This document shows, piece by piece, positions 12,767 through 49,500 of a DNA stretch of 64,000 nucleotides (the stretch's first letter is position 1; each line of letters begins with the position of its first letter). The stretch is from the IMG/VR virus record IMGVR_UViG_3300017957_000012, positions 8,360-72,359 of that record; one strand, 5' to 3'. The notes under the pieces were generated by a model. That model did no database searches, was not told where the DNA came from, and saw only the letters and a list, made by a program, of their open reading frames with translations. Position numbers and translations under genes: made by a program. Source of the DNA: a virus.

Positions 12767-12800
12767 TCGGTTCACTCTCCCCAGATCTGGCGTTTAGTTT

Positions 12801-31600: not shown

Positions 31601-34146
31601 GTTCTAATAAAGATTTGACCTTCACCGACAGTATCTAAATAATCGAACAACCCATCTACACGACGATCAGTTTCCGTAAGATCGTCAACGTATAATTCTG
31701 TTGCCTGAGTAACGTCAGTATTATTGAGCAACCAACTGTTAAGGCCTGGGAAGTTGGTTGCAGCACCTCCTGCAACACCAGTACTGCTATTAAATTCCCA
31801 TCTAAATGTTAAGCCACCACTGAATCCAAGTAGACCCTGTGGTCCTTGAATGCCCTGTAAACCTTGATGACCTTGTAAACCTTGGACACCTTGTCTACCT
31901 TGCAACCCTTGAATACCTTGATCACCTTGTACACCTTGGGCACCACCAATACCTTGAACGCCCGGATCACCTGTTCTTACGAACGTGATTCTAATATCTG
32001 CGTTATTCGTGAACGATGTTGCACCTGCAATATGGTTTACATCAAATGTATGATAACCAGTTGAGTCTACAATTTCCGTATAATTAAATGTAGCGAAATT
32101 AGTAATGTCGGCCGCATCAATAATTCTGAGAAGACCTTTTACACCACTTGCGTTAATGTCTAACTCTGTAAAGAGCGGAGAAAGATCATTTCCTGCATCA
32201 TCAAGGTCGTCGATGTACATCTTAGTTGCTGAGCCAAAGGCAGCATTATCGAATCTTAAAATACCTTGGCCGGGATCGGCTGCTGATGTACTTGTGTCGA
32301 ATGTATAGTCAAAGGTAAGGCCGCCGAAATCACCGACAGCACCTTGAAGGCCTTGCGTACCTTGAGGGCCCTGTACGCCTTGTACACCTTGAATACCCTG
32401 TCTGCCTTGAAGTCCTTGAACACCCTGGAAGCCTTGCGTACCTTGAGGGCCTTGGAAACCTTGCGCACCTTGTAGACCTTGAGCTCCTTGGATACCTGTA
32501 AAGCCTTGGAAGCCTTGGGTACCTTGAATACCTTGGTCACCAGTTCGGCTAAACGTAACAATAACTCGTGGGCTACCAGAATAAACGAGAGGTGTTCCTG
32601 TACCAACAAGGTGAGATACATCAATTTGTAACCAACCACCGTTATCAGTAACATCGGTAATTTGGAAAAGCTCGTACTTAGTAATATCACTTACTTGAGT
32701 AACTCTAATATAACCTTTCGAACTACCTGAAACAGAACCAAAGGATGCGATATAATCTGAAATATCAGTCGATGCACCTGCTTCAATAGCGTCAATATAA
32801 ATCTCTGAAGTGTTTGATATTGTCGTATTATCATTAAACGCTATTGTTCCAAGGCCCGGATCTGCTTGCGCGGTAGAAGTTGTGTAATCATATTCAAAAG
32901 TTACACCACCATAAGAACCCGTTCTACCTTGGATACCGGTGAATCCTTGTAATCCCTGCACACCTTGAGGGCCCTGTACGCCTTGTACACCTTGGATTCC
33001 TTGTGGGCCTTGGAAGCCTTGGGTACCTTGGGCGGCTTGGGGACCTTGAATACCTTGCGCACCACCTTGGCTAAATGTGACGATACAATTTGGATCTGCA
33101 ATAAGATCTGCCGATACAGCAGAACCTGCTACGTATGTTACGTCAAATGTAAACCAACCAGTGTTGTCGGTAATTTCAGTAACATCATAGAGTAAGAATT
33201 TGGTAGGATCACCAATGATGGTGATTCGCATATATGCTTTTGATCCACCGATAACATTATCAAGTGAATTAAAGAAAGCTGAGATGTCAGTACCAGAAGG
33301 TCCTGCTACATCATCGATATAAAGCTGAGTGGAGAGCGCTGCGTCTCCATTGTTATACTTAAAGTTTTGGTTGCCAGGATCTGATGCTGTTGAGTTATTA
33401 ACAAAAGCGTACTCAAATGTTACACCACCATACGAACCAGCATAACCTTGAATACCATCATAGCCTTGAATACCTTGCACGCCCTGTGCGGCTTGAGGAC
33501 CTTGAATGCCCTGTACACCTTGAACGCCTTGAATACCTTGTACACCCTGCGCGGCCTGAGGACCCTGTGTACCTTGCATTCCTTGGAAGCCCAAATCACC
33601 CTGTACGCCTTGAATTCCTTGCGGGCCTTGATGACCTTGGAAACCTCTATAACCGCGAGATCCCTGAATACCCTCTTGACCAAGCGTACCCTGTAGACCC
33701 TGAATTCCTTGGTTACCTTGGAAACCCTGTACACCACGGAAGGAACCAATATTAATCCAATTCGTACCGTCCCAAATCCAAAGCTCATCGTCGGCTTCGT
33801 CAATAACACCGTCACCAATGTTTGGTGTAGGGAATGCGGCAGTGAGTGTGGCTTGAGGATCGCCTCCGGCGTCTACATCAGGTACTGATCCAATAATTGT
33901 GAAGCCTGGACCATAGTCACCTTGTAAACCCTGAACACCTTGGGATCCTTGAAATCCCGTAGTACCTTGCGGACCAGCACCAACGTCGACCCATTGCGTT
34001 CCATCTGAAAGTTTGATCGTCCCATTTTCTGCATAGACAATCGCACCTTCAAAAGGAGCCGGGTCCAATTGAATAGGAAATTCCTGTGGTATACCCTGTC
34101 CAAGTGTAATCGTCTTGGACCCGATAGATCTAAATCTAGTCGACAT
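28699..34146 (-). CDS. collagen-like (Gly-X-Gln) fibre with six globular inserts and C-terminal S74 chaperone
   Basis: Long (QGx)n tracts; six GG(V/L)TF...TFxRxGD domains; ends [20 protein letters not shown]...IGLIAQEVE...SVAYGN. Confidence 0.85.
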
Positions 34147-34606: not shown

Positions 34607-37600
34607 TTAAATGCTAGCTCTACTATTAGAAGCTCGTCTTGCAAGTTTTCTTACTGATGAAGTAAATGGTCGACCCTCGATTCTTCCTGTTCTACCATTA
34701 ATTCTCAAACCTCGTGCAAAGTATTGGTTATTCAATTCATCGGCACCAGACCATCTTACCCTACCACCGTCTTCACTGAGTACCGAGGCCAACGCTGAAA
34801 TTGGAAGACCAAGGTTTCTAAAGTTAAGTGGCAATGCGTTTCTGTTAACACCTGCCGATGCACCATTAAACTGGTGAGCAATCGATTCAACAAGAGATCC
34901 GAACACAAGCGTTTCAGGTCTCATTACGTTGTCAATCAATCCCCAGTTAATCAGGGCTTTGACCATATCTCTATGATCATTATCTGGTGCAAGAGTAACG
35001 AGATAATCTCTCATCTTCGCCCAAGCTTGTACAAACGAGTTCAACAAATCAACATTGTTTGGACCATCGTTTATCCATGTTGCACCATTCCAATAATATA
35101 CATCCCCTGCGTAGTTACCTCTTACGTCTCCGGTAAATACTCCTGAAGTGTTGGCCATCGCATTATTTATGTCAGTAGCAACAATATATGCGTGGTTCTT
35201 CTTCACTGCAAGATCACCTGTTCTACTTTGAATCTCAGCCAATGCAGTCGTGTTATTTGAAACACTACCCATGTACTTCAGTCCAGTTGTTGTAGGATTA
35301 AAGACTGGGAATACATGCTGTCCATCAAAGTCAAAGAGCGCGGCAGTATAAGCTCGAGTTCTTTGTCTGTCCCCGTTATTCTGGTAATTATCACTAAGTG
35401 GTGGACCAGCCGGGTTAACGGTGCTAAAGTCTTGTCTAATTGCCTTCAGTAAGTTGAGACCATCTCTTCTCGTTAGATTAATGTCGATGTACTGATAAGT
35501 AGCATTGACAAATCTCACTGTATCAAAGGCGAGATCAATCTTATTGAACTCAAGTATAGAACTTACGTCTTTAACAACATCAGGTATCCAAGTATAATCA
35601 GGTTCCTCTATCGCAGGTAAGTATGTTGTATCATTATTTATCTGAGTAAGATAGAAGATATTTGCCAAATCTTCAACTTTATTTGCTTCGACTTCTGTAC
35701 CCGTGCCACTCTTCACCATTTGGCCAGGATATCTGCCAAGAACGATGTCTTTACAAATGCGACCAAGATGCTGATAAGATCTTGCAGTAGGAACACGCTG
35801 ATCTTCAGGAATGCGATAGATTTCGTTCCAGAAGTAGAAGTCTGCGTTCCATCTTGATGCTGTATTACCACCATAGTTAAGGTCATAACTAAATGCATCA
35901 AGGAGATAACCCGTATCTCTGCGACACTTATCTTTGTTGTAATCGAGTACATCAAACTCTCTATGCAAGAAGTGAATAAGATCTTGAGCTAATTCTTGCT
36001 TATTATCTTCGATCATCTCGGCTGTAGCAATAAGATCTGCTGCTATCCAAGATGTATCCGGCTCTTCAAGGACTGGTAGGCCATTTAGAGAATCATTTCT
36101 AATTACACTTTCAATAATTCCAGTTAAGCTTTGAGCCGAAGCACCTTCGGTTGCCGTAGCAGCAGTTCCAGCAATAACTTGTCTTGTGTCTGTATAACTT
36201 GTGTTAGCTGCTGCTACATCAATTTGCTGTACGACATCGCTCATTCGAGCGCCAAGGAAATTGTAAATGTCTGCTGTTTGTGTTCTCGTGTCAGCAGGAA
36301 GTACGCTAATTCCATTTTCGAAGTAAATGCCGGCTGCTATGCGAGTAGCATAGTTACCACCGTATTGTACGTCGTGTGAAACGGCATCGATAAGGTAACC
36401 AACGTCTCTTCTGCACTTACCTCTTGGGAAGCTCAATCCATTATAGGTTGTAGAGATGAAGCTAATTACTTGATCTGCTAAGTTTTCTGAAGCATTTTCA
36501 ATCAAGTTAATAGAGTCTTTATAAACGTCTAGTATCCAATCAGTCTCTGGCATTACCATCGCAGGAATTGAAGTAGTTTCAGGTGTCGCATCATCTACTG
36601 CATTAGCGACAATCTTAACGAGATCTTCTACTCTCATACCAGTCATTGGGTTAGCAGCCACTTCAGCAAAGTCTTGAGTGCGTGTATTACCAACTGTTGG
36701 AGTAACAACCATTTCTCGAGTAATGTGATTCATTACTTTACCCAAATGCAAGAATGCTTTGTTTGCTGGCTGTCTTTGATTGAGAGGTAGACCAACGTTT
36801 ACACCGTTTTGGAAGTAATTATAAGCTGCATTAACTGTAGCTGCATTACCGCCATACTGAATGTCGTGCATTACAGCATCGACGATATAACCAGTATCTC
36901 TTCTACACTTAGTCTCGTCATAAGAAAGTGTATTGAAGTATGTAGAGAGATGACCGAGTACACCATTTTGAATAGTTGGTTTCGTTGTTTCGAGTGCAGT
37001 ATATGCACCTTGGAAAGCAGTCCCGTAAGAAGAAACAGTAGGCTCTTCAATTACTGGCAATCCATCGATACCATTTTCACCAATTGCTTCTGCAACAATA
37101 AGCATCAGTTGCTCTACGACTGCAGAGATACTGTTGCCGGCTGAAGCAGCCGAAGTATCTTGAGATTCTCCGTTTCCTGATGTTGGACTAACGGGATCGC
37201 CATTAGCAATCAATTCTGCTACTGAAGCAAGATGAGTAAATGCTGCTGCTGTTGGCTCTCGCTGATTTTCTGGAAGTACGCTGAGTGCATTCTCGAAGTA
37301 AAGAATCGCGTTGTTTCTTGATGCAGTGTTACCACCATGCTGAGCGTCAAATGATACTGAATCAACAAGATAACCTACGTCTCTCTCGCACTTAGCTACA
37401 TCATAGCTCAGTGAAGGTCTGTTGAGAGCAATCCATGCAGTCATTTCTTTTTGCAAGAATACTTTGTTATTCTGAAGCTGTGCTCGAGCATTGATTCTTT
37501 GAGCACTCACTGCATCAGTACCGAATGACATAGTATTGGCGTTTGCGTAATCTTCTGTGCCACCCATGATATTAATGATAGTATCAAAGGCCGCATTAAC

Positions 37601-40600
37601 TCTTTGGTTTGCAGCGTCGTCTGTTACAGCGTTAGAAGCTTGTAACTTAGCATACTCGACTGCAGAGATTGTTTCTGTTAATTGCTCATTAATAACTGCA
37701 TCGGCACCTACCGTTCCAATTCGATATGCTCGACCATTGAAGTTTGCGTTGAAATTAGATCCAGTTAATACATCTCTCTTTACAGCATCAACGAGCAATC
37801 CAACATCTCGCTTACACTTATCTCCGTCGAAAGTATAGAATTCGTCATTAAGATAAGCAACGACTTCGTCGACAATAAACTCTTTATTGCGCTGGATTTG
37901 CTTACGTGCCACTGTTCTATTTGGATCTGCGACTGGCTTGACCTCTGTTGTAGTCAAGTTATCGAGATCATTATCATCAACAACACCTGAGATGACATTG
38001 AACAAATCTCTTACCGCGGCAGCTGTTGTAGAATCAGCGGCTGTATTATCAAAGTTTTGATATGGACCAGTGCTAATTGAATCAGCGTCTGCAGAAACAA
38101 ATGTATGCACAGCCTGACCTGAACCACCATCTCCAACATTCATTGTAATTTCAGTAGCCGTTACTGCTGTAATTGTAACCGCCTGATCATAGTAAGGATG
38201 GTGTGCCTGGGGTGATGTATGGTTTGTAGGACCGCTACCCATATCACACTGGAACGTAAATCCATTAGGCTTGAGCCAAACTTTACCACCAACTTGGAAT
38301 GAGTGTGCACCAATCGTAGCAGTAAACACTCCAGTCGCTGGATCGTATGTTGCATTAGTTGGACTATATGTTGTATACGTAGTTGCGTATGGAGTTTCTT
38401 GTACAACACTTTGGGCGACTGTAGCTAAGTGCTCAAACGCTCTCTTAGTTGGTACACGTTGCTCGATTGGTAAGATATTAGTTGCTTCTCTTAAACCAGA
38501 GACCGCGGCCAAATCGTCAAGTACTGAGAATTGACCTGTAACTGGTACACTGAGAACATTGCGTGTTCTCAATTCTTCGTAAGAAGAAGCTAATCTTTCG
38601 TCGACAGTGAAGTAGTACTTGGCTGCTTCAATTGTCGAAGCGTTGCCACCATACTCAATATCCTTAGAAACCGCATCAGTAATGAGACCAACATCCCTGA
38701 AGCACTTGTCTTTATTATATGGAAGACCATTATGGAATTCTCTCAAGTACTTAATTACACCACCCTGCAGTGATTCTGTGATGCCGTCGATCTTATTAGA
38801 AGCGTCGAGTGTTGCAGCCGTAGTGTATCCTGGCTCAATATATGTTGGCAACCAATCAAGAGTATCTTCTCGAATAACTTTAGAAACAACTTCGATAAGG
38901 TCGTGTGTTCTAATCGAGTTAATATCTCCAGCGTCTGGGTTTGTCGTATCTTGTGCTTCTGCGTTACCAGTCGTTGGTGTAACTGCTTGTGCTCTTACGA
39001 TAAGAGCTACTACATTAGCAAGGTGCTCCCAAGCTTCTGCAGTTTTAATTTTTTGATCTGCAGGTAATACGCTAACACCTTCATTAAAGTAAAGTCTTGC
39101 GAAGTTAACTACACCAGCATTTGATCTATGTGCAATATCCCAAGAAAGTGCATCAATTAAATAGCCCGTATCTCTGCGGCACTTAGCAGCGTCATATGAA
39201 AGATTCGGGAAGTTTTGTGTAATGTAAGCAATAACTTCTTCTTGTAAGAATGTCTTGTTAGCTTGCAAGTGAAGTTGAGCGTTACCAGCATCTGCACCAG
39301 CAGTTGCTGTCCCGTAATTAATTGCGTTAGCTGCACCGGTTCCATTCGTGAGAATATCAATAATTTCGTTAAACGATGCATTAGAAGCTGCAAGCTCAGT
39401 GCCATCGAGTCGATTAGCTACTTCATCTCTGATGTATCCAATCGCTGCAGCAGTTTGAGTCAATTGATCAGAGATAACATAGTTGCCACTAGCTGTGCCG
39501 GCTCGATAAGCGAGGCCAGAGTAAATGGCGTTATAATTCGATCCTGTTGCAACGTCTCTTCTGACAGCTTCAAGAATAAATCCTGTATCTCTTGAACACT
39601 TATCACCATCGAATACGAAGTATTGGCTATCGAGATAGTGCATAACTTCTTCTTGCAAGAACGTTCTATTTGCTTGCAATTGCTCTCGAGCCCGTTGGCC
39701 GTGTGAGTTATATGTTGTTTTCGCTACGGCCTGGTTAATGCATCTTACAAATGTGTGTGCACCACCGCCGCCGATACCAGAGTTAACTGTAATGTCGTCG
39801 CCGGCAACGTTAGTTACTTCCATTGGTGCATTAAAGTTTGCATCACCTCTTCTTGGATATGAGTGCTCTGTAGCATTACCATCCTGAGCGCATGTAAACG
39901 TAAAGCTATAAGGTGCAAATTCAATCCAATCTCCAACAACAATGTCGTGATTTGGAATTGTAATTACACTTACACCGTTAACTGGATTATAAGTTGCAGT
40001 CGATGGAGTGTAGTACTTCAGAATGCGTGATGGGTCTGTCCAAATAGTCGGATCAGATTCAATTGCACCTACATCGGCACTTACAAATGTATGAGCACCA
40101 CCAGTCGACGCACCAACATTCATCGTAATTGAAGTTGAAGTAACGGCAGTAATCCGTACTGGTGCGTTATAGAATGGGTGGTGACTTTCTGGAACAGCGT
40201 GATTCGTTGAGTTTCCATCGAGAGTACATGAGAATACAATACTCTCAGGTTTGAATTGAACGTAATCACCTTCGGCCAAGTTATGTCGACCGATCGTAGC
40301 TTCAAATACTCCAGTTGCAGGATCGTATGTTGCTGTACTTGGAGTGTAAGAACTAATGTAAGTACCAGATTTCACACTGTCCGGATTTGCGCTTACAAAT
40401 GTATGTGCAGTACCATTCTCGTATCCACCCACATTAACTGTAATCGTAGTTGATGTAGTGGAGTTAATTGTAATTGGCGTTCTATATGCAGGATGCTGTC
40501 TTTCACCTTCGATGGCATCTGCAAGAGCCGATACAAACGTATGAGTTCCGCCGCCATTTATTGCAGCACCTACATTACAAGTAATAGTTGTCGATGTGAC

Positions 40601-43600
40601 CGCAGTCAGTGCAACTGGTTTCTTGTAGAAAGGATGATGTGATTCAGGAGTCGGATGATTTGTTGCATTGCCGTCCATGTCACAAGTAAATACAATTGAC
40701 TCAGGAGCAATCTTAATATGATCACCAACTTGTAAATTGTGCGTTCCTATCGTTGCAGTAAATACTCCAGTTGTAGGATCGTAAGTAGCATTAGTCGGCG
40801 TGTACTTCGTCTTAGTAGTCGTTGGATATGAATGCTGTGTAGTGTTTCCATCCAAAGCACACGTAAATGTAATACTCTCATCTGCTAAGACGACAGTATC
40901 ACCTTCTTGTAAATCGTGGGCGCCAAGAGTAAGCACCATTACACCAGTCGTTGGATCGTATGTCGCGCCGGTTGGTGTGTAAGATTTCTGATTATTATTA
41001 AGGATGTCTACAATCTGATCAAATCCTTCGTCTGACCTATCGATTGCACCTTGATCTGAAATCGTACCACTTGAAAGACCCTTGAGATGATTAATAGCAC
41101 CGACCGTTTCTACAAGCTGGTCCATTACGACTGTTTCTGCGCCTTGTGTTCCAGCGCGATAAGCGATACCAGTTTGCTTTGAATTGAAGTTAGTACCAGT
41201 AATAATATCTCTTTGAATTGCTGGCAAAATGTATTGGAGCATGTCACGCTCACACTTTGCCGAATCGTATAAGAAATAGTTATCGTCAATATATCCCATT
41301 ACGTTATCTTGCAAGAAATTTCTATTCAATTGCAATTGCTTTCTTGCATTACGACGATCGGCTGAGATTCCTGCATCATCGCTAAACGCAATTGGCGAGC
41401 CGAGAGTGATAACAGAATCATCTTCTGCTTCTATAAATGTATGTGCAGAAGTATCAAACGACTTACCAACGTTAACCGTAATCTTAGTTTCGTTTGCACC
41501 AATTACTTCGATTGGTGAGTTAGCGGCAGGGTCAGTAGCTCTTGGATAACCTGTTCTCGATACGTTATTATCTCTGTCGCAACTAAATACGAGGCCACCG
41601 GTTTTGAGTAATACTTTTTGCCCAATGCCCAGACCGTGACCTGAAGTAATAGCATTCTTTACGGCAGATACAAATGTATGTACCTGTTGGCCGTTTGGTC
41701 CACCGCCGCCCACGTTCATTGTAATAGTGTTTGAAGTTACACTAATAATTGGACATGGCTTGTTGTAATATGGATGATGGGCTTCAGGAACTGCGTGGTT
41801 CTGAACACCGCTACCAGCATTACAATTAAATGTCATGCCTTCTGGTTTCAACCAAACATGATCATCTGTAGTTAATTGGTGTGGTCCAATCGTTGCTACC
41901 AAAATGCCAGTAGCAGGATCGTAAGTTGCAGCAGAAGGTGTAAAGCCTTCACTCTCTGCAATTGTTATAACGCTGTATCCAGTTTCTGGATCATATGTGG
42001 CGTTAGTTGGAGTGAACGAAACGCCTCTGTTGTCGAGTGCAGCAATGACTTCGTCAAATGCAGCGTCGACTCTCGATGTACCAATATAAGAGTTGGCATC
42101 AATTAATTCGTTTGTTTGCTCTTTGAGTCTACGATAAGCTGCAATTGTTTCGTTGCGTTGTTGACCAACAACCTTTTCGGCCGACTTCATATAATAAGCA
42201 CCACCAGCTCTCACCGCATTATAATTGGTGTCGAGCAGCATGTCGTACTTAGCGGCCGGAAGAATATAATCAGTTGTATCACGCTTACACTTAACGCTAT
42301 CGTAAGCAAAGAATTGATCGTTGTTATCAATCCAATCGAGAAGTTCGTCTTGGATAAACGATCTATTATCTTGAATGATTTCGCGAGCCGATGTTCTCTT
42401 AGAATTTCTGGTGTCAGCGAATATGATTGGGTTCATATTCTCTTCACCGTATTCTACAACATTATAGAGCTCATTCCAAGAGGTGTTGGCCCGCTCAAAA
42501 ATTTCTGTATTAGCACCATCGAAAATATCGTTGATTCGATCTTGTAAATATCTGTTGGCACCAAGAGTTGCATCGAGCTGTTCGCCTACAACCTTACTTG
42601 AGATTGGTGAACGATAAGTGATACCCGCCAATCGACCCCAGTAGTTGGTGTCAAGTGTCATGTCATAAGCAAGACCGTCGATAATAATCTTAGAATCTCG
42701 CTCACACTTCTGAGCATCATATCCTGTATAACCCAACCCGCCCGATGAAGTATTGGCAGTCAGATAATCGACCATATCTTCAATGATAAGATCTTCGTTC
42801 TGAGTAATGACGTCTGCGAAATCAGTATTACCAATAATCGTACTACCTGATGGTACATCCTTAGGTGCAAAGATTCTCGTAGAACCCTTTGCTCTCATTG
42901 AAATATCACCGAACTGAGTACCCGAGTTGTTCAAGGTCATTTGTCCGCCATTCAATGCATAGAATGCAACACGTACGAAGATGGATAGAGAACCAATACC
43001 GTTAACACCAGCACCGTCTCTTGCTACATAGCCCATACCATTTTGAGAACGAGGTGTGAAACCAAAGCAGAGTACGTATGTGTAGAGAGAATCCGGATCA
43101 AGGACTCTTCGATCCGCAAGCATACAACCACCGCCACGCCCAACAAGTGGGTTGGGGAAGTCATCAATACCAATAGACTCAACAACACCTTGGCCACCCG
43201 ACTCAGACTTGACTAAGTCACCAACAGCAAAACCTTTGTTATTTTTAAGGTTACGCACTCGGATCTTGCGATAAGTTGACTGATCTTTAGTGAGGCCGGC
43301 CGCATCATCGTCGTCATCATCCCAAGAAATAAATCCTGTTGCACCACTTGAGAAAGTAACCTTATCGTCTTTTCTAAATGTACCTGCCGTAATTGGTGCA
43401 GTCAGAATAAATTCTCTACCCAAGTCGAGTACATTACCTTTCGTATTGAAAGGCTGGAGTGGTGGTTCTACATCTTCACGGAGGAAGTTAGAAAGCTGGG
43501 AGCTGTCACGAATATATGGTGAACGGAGTAGCTTAGCACCTGGTCTATAAGCACAAGCAAAGCCACCTTCTGGGAAGTCGAAGTTATCGATCTTCCAGTT

Positions 43601-45109
43601 TTGATATGCAAAACCTTGTACATAACAACCCGAACCGACAAGGACTGCGTTATTATTTTCATAGCCGGGTAGTGCTTCGATCACCGTAGCATACTGACCC
43701 GCAGTAGCTGTCATTGCACAATCATCTGGAAGTGCAATATTACCCTTAGTGTAATAAGTGCCCGGGCCTACCGTGATATGAATGGCGTTATTAATTGCGT
43801 TACGATCGTAAGAACCGCCGGCTTTTTCTAATGCGAGCTCAGAAGCACGCTCAAGCGTTCTGATTGGCTCAAGCAACGAGCCAGGATTCTCATCATTACC
43901 TTTCGCAGCATCAACATAAATCTTAAGGTCAGACTCTGTAGTCTTTGAAATCTCACTAAAGAACTGTGCATATGTAATCTTTTCGACTTCACCTGTCTTC
44001 TCGTTCTTAAGGGCAAACCAGCTGTTTTCATCAATGTGAGGCTCGAATTCTCGATCGATTTCCATGTCGAAATCGACGAGTTTAGATTGATCAATAACAC
44101 CATTTTTAAATGTAGTGTTTTCAATTACACCATTGTCGAATGTAGAATTCTTTTGTGATAAACCATCAGCTGTTGAGCTGGTGATTGACATATTCGTTGC
44201 TACGACACCATCCATCGTGCCTGCAAAAGAAGAATCAACAATCGTTGAATTTTGAATAATACTTTGGTCGACAGTAGTGTTGGTAAAGATATTATTATTA
44301 CCAGTACCATCTGAGAAATCTGAATCAAGAATATCAGATTGAGTAATAGTAACGTTATTTGCTGTTGAGTTTTCAATCGTCCCATCAGCAAACGATGAAG
44401 TAGTAATAGTAAGATCGTCACCCGTCGAAGATGTAATAGCTCCGTTAGTGAATTCACTCTGATCGATTGTAGAGTTTGTGATTGCACCGGTGTCGAATGT
44501 AGAATTCGTAATGGTGACATTGTCAGCAGTCGAATCTGTAATTTCACCATTGGCAAAAGTAGAATTTGTTAAACGTACGTTTGTACCATCTACATCGGCC
44601 ATTGTGCCGGAAGCAAAAGATGAATTAGTAATCGTTACGTTATTGGCAGTAGAATCACCAATGGCACTATCGTCGATAGTTGAGTTAATAAGACGTACGT
44701 TGTCGCCGTCTACATTTTCCATTGATCCGTCGTTAAACGTAGAATCAACAATGGCCGTATCTCTAATATCGCCATCTCGGAAAAGAGAATTATCAATGTC
44801 GAGATTTGTGCCGGTTGAATTTCTGAGCGTGCCGTTATTAAAATCAGTTCGGACAATATTAGAATCTTCCATGTCTGAATTATCGATTTTAACATTATCG
44901 ATATTCAAATCATGGATAAAGGCGCCCGATATATCACCACCAGTGATAGTGATTCTATTGAAAATTTCGTACATGAGAGCTTGAACAAGCTCTTTTCTCG
45001 TGATGTTCTTAGTACCGTCATCACCTTGTACTAGGTTTACGATAACGAATAAATCTTCGGTCCTAGTATTAGCGCCGGTTATCGACCCGAGTTCTGAAAT
45101 CTTAGACAT
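34607..45109 (-). CDS. 3500-aa virion structural protein: N-terminal beta-helix repeats, pectin-lyase-like region, 11 KCxRD helical repeats, 7 Cys/His beta repeats
   Basis: Uninterrupted ORF in the structural operon. KISEL start; ITNSxF pentapeptide-like run; IYVDAAKGNDENPGSLLEPIRTLERA...VGPGTYY beta-helix cap; repeats counted directly in the translation. Confidence 0.85.
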   Translation of the reverse strand: MSKISELGSITGANTRTEDLFVIVNLVQGDDGTKNITRKELVQALMYEIFNRITITGGDISGAFIHDLNIDNVKIDNSDMEDSNIVRTDFNNGTLRNSTGTNLDIDNSLFRDGDIRDTAIVDSTFNDGSMENVDGDNVRLINSTIDDSAIGDSTANNVTITNSSFASGTMADVDGTNVRLTNSTFANGEITDSTADNVTITNSTFDTGAITNSTIDQSEFTNGAITSSTGDDLTITTSSFADGTIENSTANNVTITQSDILDSDFSDGTGNNNIFTNTTVDQSIIQNSTIVDSSFAGTMDGVVATNMSITSSTADGLSQKNSTFDNGVIENTTFKNGVIDQSKLVDFDMEIDREFEPHIDENSWFALKNEKTGEVEKITYAQFFSEISKTTESDLKIYVDAAKGNDENPGSLLEPIRTLERASELALEKAGGSYDRNAINNAIHITVGPGTYYTKGNIALPDDCAMTATAGQYATVIEALPGYENNNAVLVGSGCYVQGFAYQNWKIDNFDFPEGGFACAYRPGAKLLRSPYIRDSSQLSNFLREDVEPPLQPFNTKGNVLDLGREFILTAPITAGTFRKDDKVTFSSGATGFISWDDDDDDAAGLTKDQSTYRKIRVRNLKNNKGFAVGDLVKSESGGQGVVESIGIDDFPNPLVGRGGGCMLADRRVLDPDSLYTYVLCFGFTPRSQNGMGYVARDGAGVNGIGSLSIFVRVAFYALNGGQMTLNNSGTQFGDISMRAKGSTRIFAPKDVPSGSTIIGNTDFADVITQNEDLIIEDMVDYLTANTSSGGLGYTGYDAQKCERDSKIIIDGLAYDMTLDTNYWGRLAGITYRSPISSKVVGEQLDATLGANRYLQDRINDIFDGANTEIFERANTSWNELYNVVEYGEENMNPIIFADTRNSKRTSAREIIQDNRSFIQDELLDWIDNNDQFFAYDSVKCKRDTTDYILPAAKYDMLLDTNYNAVRAGGAYYMKSAEKVVGQQRNETIAAYRRLKEQTNELIDANSYIGTSRVDAAFDEVIAALDNRGVSFTPTNATYDPETGYSVITIAESEGFTPSAATYDPATGILVATIGPHQLTTDDHVWLKPEGMTFNCNAGSGVQNHAVPEAHHPYYNKPCPIISVTSNTITMNVGGGGPNGQQVHTFVSAVKNAITSGHGLGIGQKVLLKTGGLVFSCDRDNNVSRTGYPRATDPAANSPIEVIGANETKITVNVGKSFDTSAHTFIEAEDDSVITLGSPIAFSDDAGISADRRNARKQLQLNRNFLQDNVMGYIDDNYFLYDSAKCERDMLQYILPAIQRDIITGTNFNSKQTGIAYRAGTQGAETVVMDQLVETVGAINHLKGLSSGTISDQGAIDRSDEGFDQIVDILNNNQKSYTPTGATYDPTTGVMVLTLGAHDLQEGDTVVLADESITFTCALDGNTTQHSYPTTTKTKYTPTNATYDPTTGVFTATIGTHNLQVGDHIKIAPESIVFTCDMDGNATNHPTPESHHPFYKKPVALTAVTSTTITCNVGAAINGGGTHTFVSALADAIEGERQHPAYRTPITINSTTSTTITVNVGGYENGTAHTFVSANPDSVKSGTYISSYTPSTATYDPATGVFEATIGRHNLAEGDYVQFKPESIVFSCTLDGNSTNHAVPESHHPFYNAPVRITAVTSTSITMNVGASTGGAHTFVSADVGAIESDPTIWTDPSRILKYYTPSTATYNPVNGVSVITIPNHDIVVGDWIEFAPYSFTFTCAQDGNATEHSYPRRGDANFNAPMEVTNVAGDDITVNSGIGGGGAHTFVRCINQAVAKTTYNSHGQRAREQLQANRTFLQEEVMHYLDSQYFVFDGDKCSRDTGFILEAVRRDVATGSNYNAIYSGLAYRAGTASGNYVISDQLTQTAAAIGYIRDEVANRLDGTELAASNASFNEIIDILTNGTGAANAINYGTATAGADAGNAQLHLQANKTFLQEEVIAYITQNFPNLSYDAAKCRRDTGYLIDALSWDIAHRSNAGVVNFARLYFNEGVSVLPADQKIKTAEAWEHLANVVALIVRAQAVTPTTGNAEAQDTTNPDAGDINSIRTHDLIEVVSKVIREDTLDWLPTYIEPGYTTAATLDASNKIDGITESLQGGVIKYLREFHNGLPYNKDKCFRDVGLITDAVSKDIEYGGNASTIEAAKYYFTVDERLASSYEELRTRNVLSVPVTGQFSVLDDLAAVSGLREATNILPIEQRVPTKRAFEHLATVAQSVVQETPYATTYTTYSPTNATYDPATGVFTATIGAHSFQVGGKVWLKPNGFTFQCDMGSGPTNHTSPQAHHPYYDQAVTITAVTATEITMNVGDGGSGQAVHTFVSADADSISTGPYQNFDNTAADSTTAAAVRDLFNVISGVVDDNDLDNLTTTEVKPVADPNRTVARKQIQRNKEFIVDEVVAYLNDEFYTFDGDKCKRDVGLLVDAVKRDVLTGSNFNANFNGRAYRIGTVGADAVINEQLTETISAVEYAKLQASNAVTDDAANQRVNAAFDTIINIMGGTEDYANANTMSFGTDAVSAQRINARAQLQNNKVFLQKEMTAWIALNRPSLSYDVAKCERDVGYLVDSVSFDAQHGGNTASRNNAILYFENALSVLPENQREPTAAAFTHLASVAELIANGDPVSPTSGNGESQDTSAASAGNSISAVVEQLMLIVAEAIGENGIDGLPVIEEPTVSSYGTAFQGAYTALETTKPTIQNGVLGHLSTYFNTLSYDETKCRRDTGYIVDAVMHDIQYGGNAATVNAAYNYFQNGVNVGLPLNQRQPANKAFLHLGKVMNHITREMVVTPTVGNTRTQDFAEVAANPMTGMRVEDLVKIVANAVDDATPETTSIPAMVMPETDWILDVYKDSINLIENASENLADQVISFISTTYNGLSFPRGKCRRDVGYLIDAVSHDVQYGGNYATRIAAGIYFENGISVLPADTRTQTADIYNFLGARMSDVVQQIDVAAANTSYTDTRQVIAGTAATATEGASAQSLTGIIESVIRNDSLNGLPVLEEPDTSWIAADLIATAEMIEDNKQELAQDLIHFLHREFDVLDYNKDKCRRDTGYLLDAFSYDLNYGGNTASRWNADFYFWNEIYRIPEDQRVPTARSYQHLGRICKDIVLGRYPGQMVKSGTGTEVEANKVEDLANIFYLTQINNDTTYLPAIEEPDYTWIPDVVKDVSSILEFNKIDLAFDTVRFVNATYQYIDINLTRRDGLNLLKAIRQDFSTVNPAGPPLSDNYQNNGDRQRTRAYTAALFDFDGQHVFPVFNPTTTGLKYMGSVSNNTTALAEIQSRTGDLAVKKNHAYIVATDINNAMANTSGVFTGDVRGNYAGDVYYWNGATWINDGPNNVDLLNSFVQAWAKMRDYLVTLAPDNDHRDMVKALINWGLIDNVMRPETLVFGSLVESIAHQFNGASAGVNRNALPLNFRNLGLPISALASVLSEDGGRVRWSGADELNNQYFARGLRINGRTGRIEGRPFTSSVRKLARRASNSRASI

Positions 45110-46551: not shown

Positions 46552-49500
46552 TTAGGTTACAGCAATTGCTCTATAATCTTTTAACGTTGGAGCATTGTGT
46601 ACCGTGTCTGATTCAAGCACGATTTTAATTGCAAATCTTCTAAATGATTGGAAGGTTGGATCAGTACCGACACCACCCGTATCTACCTGGTATGTATAAA
46701 CACCTTGAGAATCTTTATTTGCATCTGCAATTCTATATCCAAACTCGCGGTAATCATGAATGTTTGCTTGTGAAGAGAACATATCTACACCTTCAAACAA
46801 TTCTAATTCAACCCAAGGAAGATCGGCAAATGCAGTAAAGTCAAATCCATTTTGTGCTTTGATAAAGAATCTAATATTAGAATTGGGCGGCCGATAACCC
46901 GAAGCTGCTACGTAAATATCTTCAGCATCAAGATCAACGGCTAATTCAATCTTCTTAGAAATATAAGTCGATGTTGGATTATTAAATTGTTGTCCATCAT
47001 TCAACTTATACTGATAAGCGAGAAGCTTCGATACTTCGAGGTCAACAAACGGCGTTGACGTAACGTTACTTCCATTTTCCATACGAATATTAAGATCAAA
47101 TGCTTGTGCACCAGCCGGATCATTACTTCGGCTATACAACACTGCACCAGCGAAGTTAAAGTGATTATTATCCTTAAACGATAATGGCATATTATACGTG
47201 CTGCTCAAGTTAGCAGGTGGTACAAATGTTCCATCCACATCAAGTGTCGATGTTGAATCTGTCGCCTTCATAATCATTGGCTGGAAGTAACTCAAATTAA
47301 TATTTTGCAGGGCTGTTACAGTGGCAGATTTTTCACTGTCTAGACCATAAATTGTACCTGCAACAAATACTCTATTCGAGTTTGCAGAGCTATCTTCTAA
47401 ATACATTTGAGTAGGATCGTTAATGTCATACCAGCAAAGATTACCTTTTACAACCGGCGTACATGAATCACCTGCGCCAGGAAGAGCATTCTCTTTGTTC
47501 AGCAACATTTGAGTAGCAGACTGTACAGCCACTACTTCAAAAATATCTTTATTTCCGTTGGAGTCTTCAATCAATACAAAATCTCCGTCGAAGTATTTTG
47601 TATCGAGTGCTGTACCAGTTACTGTAGCACTACCGACCGGAATACCAACGGTGTCAGTAGATGCTTTTTCTTGATAAATTTGCTCACCGGGCAGGAATCT
47701 TCCATTCCAGCTATCTACAATAAAGAATTCGTGATCATTATTAGTGAGTGTAACTGTTCCGGAAGAAGTAGCAAAGTTGTGTCTACGTAAGACAAACTTC
47801 AGATCTTCATCCTGATATGATCGCCATGCACTATTATTTGTTGAGCTAAATAGTACACCATCACCCCAGTCTTGTACAACGGCGGCACCTTGTGTAGGTC
47901 CTGGTGTCAAATCTGTTCCACCTATCTGAGAAATATATGCAAGATAGTTGGGATCTTGAGCATCTGGTTTGATTGAAACTGCGTATTCAGCTTCTACATC
48001 GAGTCTTACCGGAGCTTCGAAAGTAAACGTCGTCGCTAAACTTGCGTCATCTGATACATTAACATCAGTAGCAAGCTTATGCACTCTACCGAATGGAATA
48101 ACCTGGCCGGAAGGATAACCGTTAATTACTTCTCTCAATTCAACCGTTACACCATTTGTATCTGACTTTCTCTTGAAGAACAAATCGACTTCTGAAATAT
48201 AAACGCTGTTGCTGCCTTGGCCCATACCTTTCTTAATGAAGAATGTTTGAGCAAGTGGGTCAGCAGCGGGAATTCTTCTTACGACTGTTCTAAACGAAGA
48301 AGAACTATTAATGTCGAAACTTGGTGCTCGAGTTGTTACGCCAAGGGCACTCTTTTCAACTGAGAAGTTGTAAGCCCTATATGTAATATGCCCACGCGAG
48401 ATTCCAGCAGATTCAATTTGACTATAAGTGTCAATGTCTGAAATTTCTAATACTCTGTCACCTACAAAGAATGTTTCTGATGGAAGTGCAAAGACTGCTC
48501 GAAGAACACCATTAGAGTCAGAAGAAACTGCATCACCTTTTTGTCCGGCTCTTTGTACATCATCTGCAGAGTTAACGTTTGTGCCCGGAATAATATGAGC
48601 ATTGACGTCTTCGCCGTCGAAGAAGAAATAATGTCGTGCATTAGGACGGAGGCCCGTCATATAAATGCCAATATCTCTTCCTGCCATAAATGGCTCGAAG
48701 TTAAAGTTACGTACGAACTCACCAACTTGGAAGTTCTGCTGCATGTTTGAAGTATTGAGCTCAAGACTTCTTGTCGTTGTTTCGATTCGAGTTGTAAGTG
48801 TATTGCCACCTCTAAATCGATCCATGAATCCATCGCCAAGGAATGGGAACATATTAGGTGGTGCCCATCCATCTGCGTTACCGAACCAATTATTCTCTGC
48901 TTCTACAACTCTTTCTGTTGTAACGTCAGTCAATGGAATAAACTCTTGTAGATTTTCTACAAAGTCTTGGAATGCAGACGTCATGTCGATATTAATTTCT
49001 GCGGGAGTAACTGTCGTATCATAAGCAGCATCATAGGGTGGAGATAATTCACCAATACCACGATAGCTATAAGCGTTACTTACACAATTACGGAATCCTG
49101 TTGCGTAATCTTGAGAAATTACATCAACATTACTATCCCGGCCAAGTGTTGCAACTTTTGCTTTACTGACCGCTGGGAAAATGCTTGCGCCAGATGCTGA
49201 CTTATATTTCAAATCGAGCGGAATTGTTTTAACAGCAGGAGTCAATATCTTTTGATTAAATGGTACGGCTGCTTTAAACTCCGGATCTCTTACGTCTGCA
49301 ACAGATAAATCATTAAAAGGATCTACAATAAATCCGTTCTTAAATCTGTCAAGTCCATCCTGATCTGGAATGAACATGTTTTGAGTATCTTGCTCGAGTT
49401 GATTCAAAGATATGTAGTACGCCATTCTATCGATTTGCGCACTCATTGCGTGCATATCTTTCATCGTGTAAACTTTTACACCTTTCGATCGAGTGTGTAC

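What the first reader, a model, noticed from the sequence alone, without database searches (positions are those of the whole stretch)
35400..42850. Virion protein with 11 phycobiliprotein-like KCxRD domains: a possible bilin-chromophorylated phage appendage
Seen: the 3500-aa protein has 11 helical ~130-150-aa repeats with consensus (L/I)xxNxxF(I/L)xxE(V)xx(Y/W)(I/L)xxx(F/Y)xxxxY(D)xxKCxRD(T/V)GY(L/I)(I/V)DA(V)xxD(I)xxG(G)N. The Cys is invariant, at codons near 42705, 42288, 41253, 39597, 39180, 38703, 37815, 37389, 36906, 36414 and 35925; a 12th copy near 35470 has LTRRD. Known: phycobiliproteins have a globin-like fold and attach a bilin to the Cys84-type residue in (K/A)CxRD(I/M/L)xY, with the Arg/Asp binding the chromophore. 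Phycocyanin alpha reads roughly ...VYxKFPY...KCARDIGYYLR...AGG, versus ITQNFPNLSYDAAKCRRDTGYLID here. Marine phages also encode bilin enzymes (ho1/hemO, pcyA, pebS, pcyX, cpeT-type lyases) whose purpose is not fully settled. Inference: this structural protein may be the bilin acceptor, giving a pigmented virion appendage for photoprotection, light sensing or light-gated adsorption. No bilin genes lie in this window.
Basis: partly seen in the sequence, partly recalled or inferred. Interest (0 to 1): 0.93.

Follow-up and report, generated by a model that had tools for sequence, protein, structure and literature searches.

The report
Phycobiliprotein-like domain array in phage fibre
A giant tail-fibre-type protein of an uncultured T4-like phage carries eleven domains that are distant relatives of the pigment-carrying phycobiliproteins and keep their pigment-attachment site, so the virus particle may carry a bile pigment, which nobody has tested at the bench.

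Summary
ORF 34607-45109(-), 3500 aa, has 11 K-C-x-R-D motifs at the stated codons. They lie in 11 significant copies of a ~135-165-aa helical domain. The 12th 'LTRRD' copy is not significant (E 0.54).

The fold claim is supported. An AlphaFold model of copy 9 (pLDDT 92.7) matches phycobiliproteins or the ApcE bilin domain in the top 8 of 48,161 chains (Z 14.0-11.2). A profile comparison with 30 cyanobacterial phycobiliproteins aligns Cys, Arg and Asp in register (E 6.1e-5). Pfam's own cut-off is not reached (18 vs 22.2 bits).

Bilin binding is not shown. The record is a 33%-complete fragment without bilin genes. The closest long relative (170 kb) has the orthologous 11-domain protein plus an adjacent heme oxygenase and bilin reductase.

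Against a strict link, Pelagibacter phage Mosig and P-SSM2 have a reductase but no domain.

In 18 cultured phages, domain and CpeT lyase co-occur in 18 of 18. Domain status also matches published light-dependent adsorption in 4 of 4 species; n is tiny.

This scan noted the same thing on other DNA before: 51 notes, at least 47 genomes. I found no paper describing it.

The parts
34607..45109 (-). 3500-aa fibre-type virion protein (P0001)
   Evidence: ORF list and translation. PHROG phrog_5342 'tail fiber protein' E 7e-134 and phrog_701 'virion structural protein' E 2.9e-120. It is flanked by baseplate wedge and tail-fibre genes.
44090..44932 (-). N-terminal pentapeptide-repeat-like region (about residues 60-340)
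   Evidence: Pfam PF13599 Pentapeptide_4, 65.7 bits against a cut-off of 38, best stretch 176-248.
42401..42829 (-). globin-like KCxRD domain 1 (residues 761-903, Cys802)
   Evidence: A2 profile, 88.6 bits; motif.
41972..42397 (-). domain 2 (residues 905-1046, Cys941)
   Evidence: 128.5 bits. The Pfam PF00502 sub-threshold stretch 938-1025 lies here.
41357..41971 (-). inserted beta-rich Cys/His domains between domains 2 and 3 (residues 1047-1251)
   Evidence: Sequence; no Pfam match.
40937..41356 (-). domain 3 (residues 1252-1391, Cys1286)
   Evidence: 109.2 bits.
39701..40936 (-). four tandem beta-rich 'YTPxxATYDPxTG' domains (residues 1392-1803)
   Evidence: Motif copies start at residues 1377, 1436, 1588 and 1700. 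PHROG phrog_1276 and phrog_18802 match here.
39293..39700 (-). domain 4 (residues 1804-1939, Cys1838)
   Evidence: 110.4 bits.
38813..39289 (-). domain 5 (residues 1941-2099, Cys1977)
   Evidence: 157.0 bits.
37922..38812 (-). domain 6 (residues 2100-2396, Cys2136), split by a beta-domain insert that starts at residue 2248
   Evidence: 101.7 bits for profile positions 3-132, plus 12.1 bits for positions 56-146 after the insert.
37511..37918 (-). domain 7 (residues 2398-2533, Cys2432)
   Evidence: 105.4 bits.
37022..37498 (-). domain 8 (residues 2538-2696, Cys2574)
   Evidence: 154.8 bits.
36530..37015 (-). domain 9 (residues 2699-2860, Cys2735), the copy that was modelled
   Evidence: 138.3 bits. 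AlphaFold pLDDT 92.7. Fold matches.
36041..36523 (-). domain 10 (residues 2863-3023, Cys2899)
   Evidence: 148.7 bits.
35582..36034 (-). domain 11 (residues 3026-3176, Cys3062)
   Evidence: 146.1 bits.
35120..35569 (-). possible decayed 12th copy (LTRRD, no Cys)
   Evidence: It aligns by eye, but the profile scores -3.3 bits, E 0.54.
34610..35119 (-). C-terminal 170 residues, unassigned
   Evidence: No Pfam match at E<=0.1.

Best explanation
The gene encodes a giant fibre or virion-structural protein of a T4-like myovirus that is probably not a cyanophage. Its middle and C-terminal two thirds are a string of 11 bilin-binding-globin domains. These are distant homologues of phycobiliproteins and BBAGs. 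They lack the N-terminal X-Y hairpin and keep the C-x-R-D chromophore site (shown). I infer that each domain takes up a linear tetrapyrrole on the conserved Cys while the fibre folds in the infected cell. In this lineage the bilin would come from the phage's own heme oxygenase and PcyX-type reductase, and attachment would be autocatalytic as in BBAGs and ApcE. In cyanophages the bilin would come from the host pool with help from the phage CpeT lyase. The virion would then carry pigment. The most likely use is as a light-responsive element of the adsorption apparatus, with photoprotection as an alternative. That last step is the most speculative.
For: Fold. The model of copy 9 has pLDDT 92.7 and pTM 0.88. 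VIA-align against 48,161 chains ranks phycobiliproteins or the ApcE bilin domain at ranks 1-8 (Z 14.0-11.2, rmsd 2.0-2.8 A over 111-134 residues). Sensor globins and photocobilins follow at Z 10.2-9.7. Foldseek's top 20 listed rows are all phycobiliproteins (E 0.027-0.09, TM 0.50-0.64).

Sequence. hhalign of 61 phage domains against 30 phycobiliproteins gives probability 64.9, E 6.1e-5 and 102 columns, with Cys, Arg and Asp aligned column for column. 11 of the 13 PDB sequences with E<=10 are phycocyanin alpha. PF00502 gives sub-threshold hits on the same ORFs in 14 of 21 phage records, and none in the two cultured phages in that set that lack the domain (P-SSM2, Mosig).

Conservation. Cys 95%, Arg 95% and Asp 98% over 1619 domain instances.

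Bilin supply. G001 (gp6 80% identical, 170 kb) has an 11-copy orthologue and an adjacent hemO-FDBR pair. G029 and the complete G004 also have both. The complete G005 has neither.

Lyase link. All 15 cultured cyanomyoviruses with the domain have a CpeT-like ORF, two of them only by summed score. The 3 cultured phages without the domain have no CpeT candidate at E<=10. cpeT lies 0.3-1.8 kb upstream of a domain-bearing giant gene in S-PM2, S-H9-1, ACG-2014j and Sf-CH3. In Sf-CH3, pcyA abuts that gene.

Phenotype. P-HM1/P-HM2 and S-PM2 adsorb only in light and have the domain. P-SSM2 and P-SSP7 adsorb in the dark and lack it.

Precedent. BBAGs with CXRD self-attach bilins without a lyase (PMC10151467, passages).
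Against: No experiment shows a chromophore. I could not inspect model coordinates, so a pocket around the Cys is not shown. Pfam's gathering score is not met (18 vs 22.2 bits). Single repeats reach at best E 0.15.

The window's own record has no FDBR or heme oxygenase, though it is only 33% complete. Mosig (complete genome, hemO + FDBR) and P-SSM2 (FDBR) have no domain, so the bilin genes do not need it. G003 (100 kb fragment) has hemO + FDBR and no domain. G027 has the domain, covers about 50 kb upstream of gp6, and has no FDBR.

G001 and G004 have no CpeT, so the lyase link fails outside cyanophages. 15 of 16 cyanomyoviruses tested carry the domain, so the phenotype match rests on one informative contrast (P-SSM2). 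The genomes are related and were not sampled at random. Pigmented purified cyanophage has not been reported, to my recall.
Confidence: 0.55

Rival explanations
1. The domains are apo-globin building blocks. A phycobiliprotein or BBAG-type domain was captured long ago and is now used only as a rigid helical spacer in fibres. The C-x-R-D and the other invariant polar residues are kept for folding or for contacts between domains, and no chromophore is bound.
For: The domain occurs in up to 36 copies per protein in 1407 representative proteins, as structural repeats do. Beta domains are freely inserted between and inside copies. Bilin genes and the domain do not always go together. No standalone single-domain form was found.
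Against: A lone Cys kept in 95% of 1619 copies, together with the very Arg and Asp that bind the bilin in phycobiliproteins, is hard to explain by packing alone. The 18 of 18 concordance with a bilin lyase gene in cultured phages, and the adjacency of cpeT or pcyA to the gene in four phages, would be a coincidence.
Confidence: 0.25
2. The domains bind something other than a bilin, or use the Cys chemically. Options are heme or another tetrapyrrole as in sensor globins, a metal shared between chains of a trimeric fibre, or a redox or cross-linking role.
For: Sensor globins and stressosome RsbR-type globins are the next-best fold matches (Z 10.2-7.0). A ferrochelatase gene is annotated in the 6.6-kb stretch upstream of hemO in Mosig.
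Against: No His reaches 70% conservation in the family, so there is no proximal-His equivalent. Copy numbers are odd as often as even (11 here, 9 in S-PM2, 3 in Syn9), which argues against paired disulfides. The best fold and profile matches are the bilin-binding globins, not the heme globins.
Confidence: 0.12
3. The domains act inside the infected cell rather than on the particle, as a sink or decoy for bilins or for phycobilisome or lyase partners. The giant protein is only incidentally structural.
For: Phage bilin genes are usually read as tools to remodel host pigment metabolism (PMC2984593 and PMC11480375, passages).
Against: The gene sits in the baseplate and fibre module and matches tail-fibre and virion-structural PHROGs. 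Relatives are annotated as tail or structural proteins. This lineage lacks psbA and so probably infects hosts without phycobilisomes.
Confidence: 0.08

Closest known systems
Light-harvesting phycobiliproteins (CpcA/B, ApcA/B, CpeA/B; Pfam PF00502) and the bilin-binding domain of ApcE
   Same: Globin-like fold: ranks 1-8 of 48,161 chains, Z 14.0-11.2. The C-x-R-D site aligns in register. The Cys-to-GG spacing in helix E is the same as in phycocyanin alpha, 18 residues (alignment).
   Different: The first ~35 residues (X-Y hairpin) are missing: model residues 1-141 align to chain residues 35/37 to the end. The domains occur as 11 tandem copies in one 3500-aa virion-type chain, not as separate alpha and beta subunits. 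Pfam's cut-off is not reached. About 9-16% identity in the structural alignments. No chromophore has been shown.
BBAGs, bilin biosynthesis-associated globins of non-photosynthetic bacteria (Rockwell et al. 2023, PMC10151467; passages read)
   Same: They are phycobiliprotein paralogues outside phycobilisomes. BBAG-1 and BBAG-3 have CXRD. They are encoded in genomes with a heme oxygenase and an FDBR, and they attach bilins without a lyase. The phage lineage here (G001, G004, G029) has hemO + FDBR and no CpeT.
   Different: BBAGs are small soluble cellular proteins next to their enzymes. Here hemO-FDBR lies about 65 kb from the fibre gene. No BBAG sequence was at hand, so the relationship was not tested by sequence.
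Giant tail-fibre and virion-structural proteins of T4-like cyanophages (e.g. S-PM2p088, S-PM2p218, ACG-2014j gp027 'short tail fiber protein')
   Same: They carry the same domain family with KCxRDxGY kept and have the same kind of giant multi-domain architecture. BFVD models of these proteins match the model at E down to 9e-8.
   Different: Cyanophage copies are fewer (1-11 profile hits per genome) and more diverged (22-28% identity). Those phages have psbA and CpeT. This lineage has neither.
Photocobilins / photoglobins (globin-B12 photoreceptors)
   Same: Globin domain that binds a bilin; fold match Z 9.8 and 9.7.
   Different: The fold match is weaker than to phycobiliproteins. No B12 domain was found here (Pfam).

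Membership tests
Phycobiliprotein (Pfam PF00502 Phycobilisome) | Score at or above Pfam's gathering cut-off (22.2 bits) | tested here: not met
   The whole protein scores 18 bits, E 0.003. Among single repeats, 1 of 11 matches, at E 0.15. In relatives the scores are 13-19 bits in 14 of 21 records. Only one ORF (S-PM2, 3792 aa) exceeds the cut-off, and only by summed score.
Phycobiliprotein (Pfam PF00502 Phycobilisome) | Globin-like phycobiliprotein fold | tested here: met
   pLDDT 92.7. VIA ranks 1-8 are all phycobiliprotein or ApcE, Z 14.0-11.2. Foldseek's top rows are phycobiliproteins, probability 1.00.
Phycobiliprotein (Pfam PF00502 Phycobilisome) | Cys-x-Arg-Asp chromophore site on helix E, in register | tested here: met
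   hhalign aligns C, R and D column for column, E 6.1e-5. The HMM alignment to phycocyanin alpha agrees. The site is kept in 11 of 11 copies here.
Phycobiliprotein (Pfam PF00502 Phycobilisome) | N-terminal X-Y helical hairpin used for alpha-beta pairing | tested here: not met
   Model residue 1 aligns to chain residue 35-37 in free subunits and 53 in ApcE. hhalign starts at phycobiliprotein profile column 31.
Phycobiliprotein (Pfam PF00502 Phycobilisome) | Covalently bound bilin | not testable with these tools
   Needs expression with bilin enzymes, or virion mass spectrometry.
BBAG (bilin biosynthesis-associated globin) | Encoded together with a heme oxygenase and an FDBR | tested here: inconclusive
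   The own record has none, but it is 33% complete. Relatives G001, G004 and G029 have both. Mosig and P-SSM2 have an FDBR without the domain.
BBAG (bilin biosynthesis-associated globin) | Self-attachment of a bilin without a lyase | not testable with these tools
   Shown for BBAGs in PMC10151467 (passages). Consistent here only in that G001 and G004 lack CpeT. CpeS/U-type and E/F-type lyases were not searched.
T4-like tail-fibre / virion structural protein | Profile match to phage fibre or structural families, and a place in the baseplate-fibre module | tested here: met
   phrog_5342 E 7e-134, phrog_701 E 2.9e-120. Neighbours include a gp6-type wedge protein (phrog_219, E 6.6e-140), other baseplate wedge subunits and a fibre tip.
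T4-like tail-fibre / virion structural protein | Presence in the particle | not testable with these tools
   No proteome exists for this uncultured phage. The names of relatives are annotations.
Heme-binding sensor globin | Conserved proximal histidine | tested here: not met
   No His is among the columns conserved at 70% or more in 1619 domain instances. The fold match is weaker, Z 10.2 or less.

The most novel reading that the evidence does not exclude
The bilin-loaded globin array is the phage's own photoreceptor. Light absorbed by pigment on the fibre changes its conformation and permits adsorption. This would explain the long-known light-dependent adsorption of cyanomyoviruses, which does not need host photosynthesis. 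It would also explain why phages carry cpeT, pebS/pcyA or hemO-pcyX, including phages of non-photosynthetic hosts such as this lineage.
Probability: 0.2. Interest if true: 0.95.

Novelty: new variant of a known kind. Interest (0 to 1): 0.8.

Why it matters
Two open questions would become directly testable.

The first is why phages carry bilin-synthesis and bilin-lyase genes, including phages of hosts without phycobilisomes. The 2024 paper on phage tetrapyrrole genes calls the hemO-FDBR pair 'still enigmatic' and names interaction with a BBAG only as a possibility (PMC11480375, passages). A review says it is unclear how pebS and pcyA help phages of Prochlorococcus (PMC2984593, passages). A phage-encoded acceptor in the virion would give these genes a purpose.

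The second is what makes adsorption of some cyanomyoviruses depend on light independently of host photosynthesis. [quoted passage not shown]

A pigment-carrying virus particle would be a new kind of virion component. The domain would also be a large natural library of compact, perhaps lyase-independent, bilin-binding modules.

Tried and rejected
- **First model.** A model from only the 11 paralogous copies was poor (pLDDT 54.7). Its Foldseek matches were already phycobiliproteins but not significant (E about 1). I replaced it with the 61-row alignment.
- **Single repeat against PDB sequences.** Nothing relevant was found.
- **ESM Atlas.** No usable hit.
- **Short standalone relatives.** The search for homologous proteins with the profile at near length gave 11 hits: ten on contigs of 833-2543 bases, probably fragments, and one covering only 13% of the query. 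None had Pfam domains and none was a standalone phycobiliprotein-like protein.
- **FDBR-first co-occurrence test.** 17 IMG/VR records with the reductase had no domain, but all are at most 42% complete and the two genes lie about 65 kb apart, so this says nothing.
- **Domain-first co-occurrence test.** 1 of 16 records had FDBR + HO. Mapping gp6 showed that in G023-G026 the expected site lies off the contig. G027 is borderline.
- **Disulfide pairing of the Cys.** Rejected on copy-number parity and cytoplasmic assembly. This is an inference.
- **P0001 as T4 gp7.** Rejected, because the 1148-aa ORF directly after gp6 takes that place. This is an inference from gene order.
- **Cyanophage origin of the window.** Not supported. 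The best cultured gp6 match is Sinorhizobium phage phiN3/phiM12, 42%. There is no psbA in G001, G003, G004, G005 or G029.
- **Literature.** Searches for a prior description gave 0 papers. A fourth search listed 15 papers holding 3 of 4 terms; none describes it by title or abstract.
- **Not used.** Complex prediction, sequencing-run tools, and a metagenome scan.
- **Supplements.** Supplements of PMC10151467 and PMC11480375 (globin and contig lists) were closed and may bear on whether phage globins were seen there.

Full report
**What is there.** The window is a stretch of a T4-like myovirus. All long ORFs run on the minus strand. They include a gp6-type baseplate wedge protein (phrog_219, E 6.6e-140), further wedge subunits and fibre-tip domains. 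The record that holds the window is a 72,359-base fragment, estimated 33% complete.

ORF 34607-45109(-) encodes 3500 residues. It matches PHROG families named tail fibre (E 7e-134), virion structural protein (E 2.9e-120) and short tail fibre (E 3.6e-69). The N-terminal 340 residues are pentapeptide-repeat-like (PF13599, 65.7 bits).

**The observation.** A profile built from 61 domain sequences finds 11 full copies (88.6-157 bits). One of them, copy 6, is split by an inserted beta domain, so its last helix is found separately. The proposed 12th copy (LTRRD) is not significant (E 0.54). Beta-rich Cys/His domains with the start motif YTPxxATYDPxTG sit between and inside the helical copies.

The domain is a large family. 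1407 representative proteins match at E<=1e-3, with up to 36 copies in one protein. Across 1619 aligned instances from 151 proteins, the conservation is Cys 95%, Arg 95%, Asp 98%, a second Asp 99% and a Tyr 97%.

**Is it phycobiliprotein-like?** Sequence evidence alone is weak but consistent.
- Pfam PF00502 scores 18 bits on the whole protein, below its 22.2-bit cut-off.
- A profile search of PDB sequences gives 13 hits at E<=10. Eleven of them are phycocyanin alpha, best E 0.09. The alignment runs from helix B through K-C-x-R-D-x-G-Y to a GG at the same spacing.
- PF00502 also gives 13-19-bit hits on the domain-bearing giant ORFs in 14 of 21 phage records. It gives no candidate in P-SSM2 and Mosig, which lack the domain.

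I then built an alignment of 30 phycobiliproteins taken from six cyanobacterial genomes. hhalign of the phage profile against it gives probability 64.9 and E 6.1e-5 over 102 columns. Phage columns 3-105 align to phycobiliprotein columns 31-141, and Cys, Arg and Asp fall in the same columns.

Structure evidence is strong. With the 61-row alignment, AlphaFold gives pLDDT 92.7 and pTM 0.88 for copy 9. The unfiltered VIA-align search of 48,161 chains puts phycoerythrin, allophycocyanins and the ApcE bilin domain at ranks 1-8 (Z 14.0-11.2, rmsd 2.0-2.8 A, 111-134 residues). Sensor globins, a sporulation-inhibitor globin and photocobilins come next (Z 10.2-9.7). The tool warns that helical models can reach Z 13-14 by chance. 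Here, though, the top family is coherent, agrees with the sequence evidence, and covers the whole domain. Foldseek agrees.

The model aligns to phycobiliprotein residues 35/37 to the end. So the X-Y hairpin used for alpha-beta pairing is absent. I conclude that the domains are true, distant members of the bilin-binding-globin superfamily, but not phycobiliproteins in Pfam's sense.

**Bilin supply in this lineage.** The window's record has no FDBR and no heme oxygenase. Its closest long relative is G001 (gp6 80% identical, 170 kb, 77% complete).
- G001 has a 3162-aa orthologue with 11 copies.
- G001 also has, about 65 kb upstream, an adjacent heme oxygenase (202 aa) and FDBR (247 aa).
- In G001 that cassette lies about 45 kb beyond gp6. 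The window's record ends about 1 kb past gp6, so it cannot show the cassette.
- G029 (77 kb) has both features at the same spacing.
- G004 (complete, 283 kb) has both. G005 (complete, 285 kb) has neither.
- Against the link: G003 (100 kb fragment) has the enzymes and no domain. G027 has the domain, about 50 kb of sequence beyond gp6, and no enzymes.
- None of G001, G003, G004, G005 or G029 has psbA or CpeT, so the lineage is probably not cyanophage.
- The nearest cultured FDBR is that of Pelagibacter phage Mosig, at 35.5% identity.

**Cultured phages.** tblastn with copies 8-11 hits 68 records, all cyanophages. I ran the more sensitive profile on 18 complete genomes. They were not a random sample: 2 were tblastn hits, 11 were chosen for an FDBR hit (ten cyanomyoviruses and Mosig), 4 for a known adsorption phenotype, and Syn9 was chosen freely.
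- The domain is present in 15 of 16 cyanomyoviruses, all but P-SSM2.
- It is absent from the podovirus P-SSP7 and from Mosig.
- So Mosig (hemO + FDBR, with ferrochelatase a few genes upstream) and P-SSM2 (FDBR) make or can make bilins without this domain. S-PM2, S-H9-1 and Syn9 have the domain without an FDBR. The bilin-synthesis link is therefore not a rule.

**A tighter link to the lyase CpeT.**
- PF06206 matches at E<=1e-3 in 13 of the 15 domain-bearing cultured genomes.
- The other two, P-SSM7 and S-SSM4, each have a 145-155-aa ORF whose two pieces sum to 28.6 and 22.9 bits, above the 21-bit cut-off.
- The three genomes without the domain have no candidate even at E<=10.
- That is 18 of 18 concordant. 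By hand, Fisher's exact p is 1/816. With G001 and G004 added (domain present, no CpeT), p is about 0.009.
- The genomes are related, and the only like-for-like contrast is P-SSM2.

Gene order adds support.
- In ACG-2014j, cpeT ends 291 bases before the 4063-aa 'short tail fiber protein' that carries the domain.
- In S-PM2, cpeT lies 1.4 kb upstream of S-PM2p218, with a 2OG-Fe(II) oxygenase between them.
- S-H9-1 has the same cpeT, oxygenase, giant-gene order.
- In Sf-CH3, the order is cpeT, then pcyA, then the domain-bearing 'virion structural protein', which starts 38 bases after pcyA.

**A phenotype that fits.** Liu et al. 2019 (PMC6628666, passages) report the following.
- P-HM1 and P-HM2 do not adsorb in the dark.
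- P-SSM2 adsorbs in the dark, though less than in light.
- P-SSP7 adsorbs in the dark.
- They cite Jia et al. 2010 (which I did not see) for light-dependent adsorption of S-PM2 that does not need host photosynthesis. They name light-sensitive host receptors or tail fibres as the possible cause.

Domain status follows this pattern. P-HM1 and P-HM2 have 4 hits each, with KCARD kept. S-PM2 has 9 hits. P-SSM2 and P-SSP7 have none. That is 4 of 4 species, since P-HM1 and P-HM2 are one species by their records. Because 15 of 16 cyanomyoviruses have the domain, only P-SSM2 is informative. This is a lead, not a result.

**Context in print.** Rockwell et al. 2023 (PMC10151467, passages) describe BBAGs, which are phycobiliprotein paralogues in non-photosynthetic bacteria. 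BBAG-1 and BBAG-3 carry CXRD, are encoded with HO and FDBR genes, and bind bilins without lyases. The same paper places phage PcyX with alphaproteobacterial PcyA. PMC11480375 (passages) calls the phage hemO-FDBR pair enigmatic and mentions a BBAG partner only as a possibility. My four searches found no paper that describes phycobiliprotein-like domains in phage structural proteins. BFVD entries with this fold bear names such as tail protein or structural protein. Within this scan the same feature was already noted 51 times in at least 47 genomes. Those are unchecked AI notes and do not count as evidence here.

**Verdict.**
- Shown: a fibre-type phage protein with 11 bilin-binding-globin domains that keep the chromophore triad.
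- Inferred, about even odds: they carry a bilin.
- Speculative, about 1 in 5: the pigment gates adsorption by light.

Noticed in passing
window 39701-40936, 41357-41971 and about 38090-38368: Beta-rich domains with the start motif YTPxxATYDPxTG and conserved Cys/His (HHPFY, HTFVSA) are inserted between the globin copies. One is inserted inside copy 6, between its fourth and last helix. They match phrog_1276 and phrog_18802 but no Pfam family.
   Followed up: partly
L397 (S-PM2 AJ630128.1 165928-177267): The record annotates 16 tRNA genes at coordinates inside the CDS S-PM2p218, the 3792-aa open frame that carries the domain. The annotation of this older record looks inconsistent there.
   Followed up: no
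L397, L002 (S-PM2 and S-H9-1): A 2OG-Fe(II) oxygenase gene sits between cpeT and the domain-bearing giant gene in both phages. Mosig has three such oxygenases next to hemO-FDBR. This is a possible further member of a bilin-related module.
   Followed up: no
L088 2015-2812 (G001): A 265-aa ORF with a GHSLGG motif (lipase class 3-like by recall, not tested) lies divergently next to the hemO-FDBR pair.
   Followed up: no
window 53848-56241: A 797-aa ORF inside the baseplate module matches phrog_15006 'tail fiber protein' (E 1e-37). Other first-stage notes call it a subtilase with a copper-site-like insert. I did not examine it.
   Followed up: no
window 3020-12775, 28699-34146, 46552-52137: Three further giant ORFs (3251, 1815 and 1861 aa) lie in the same fibre module. 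None has the globin domain.
   Followed up: partly
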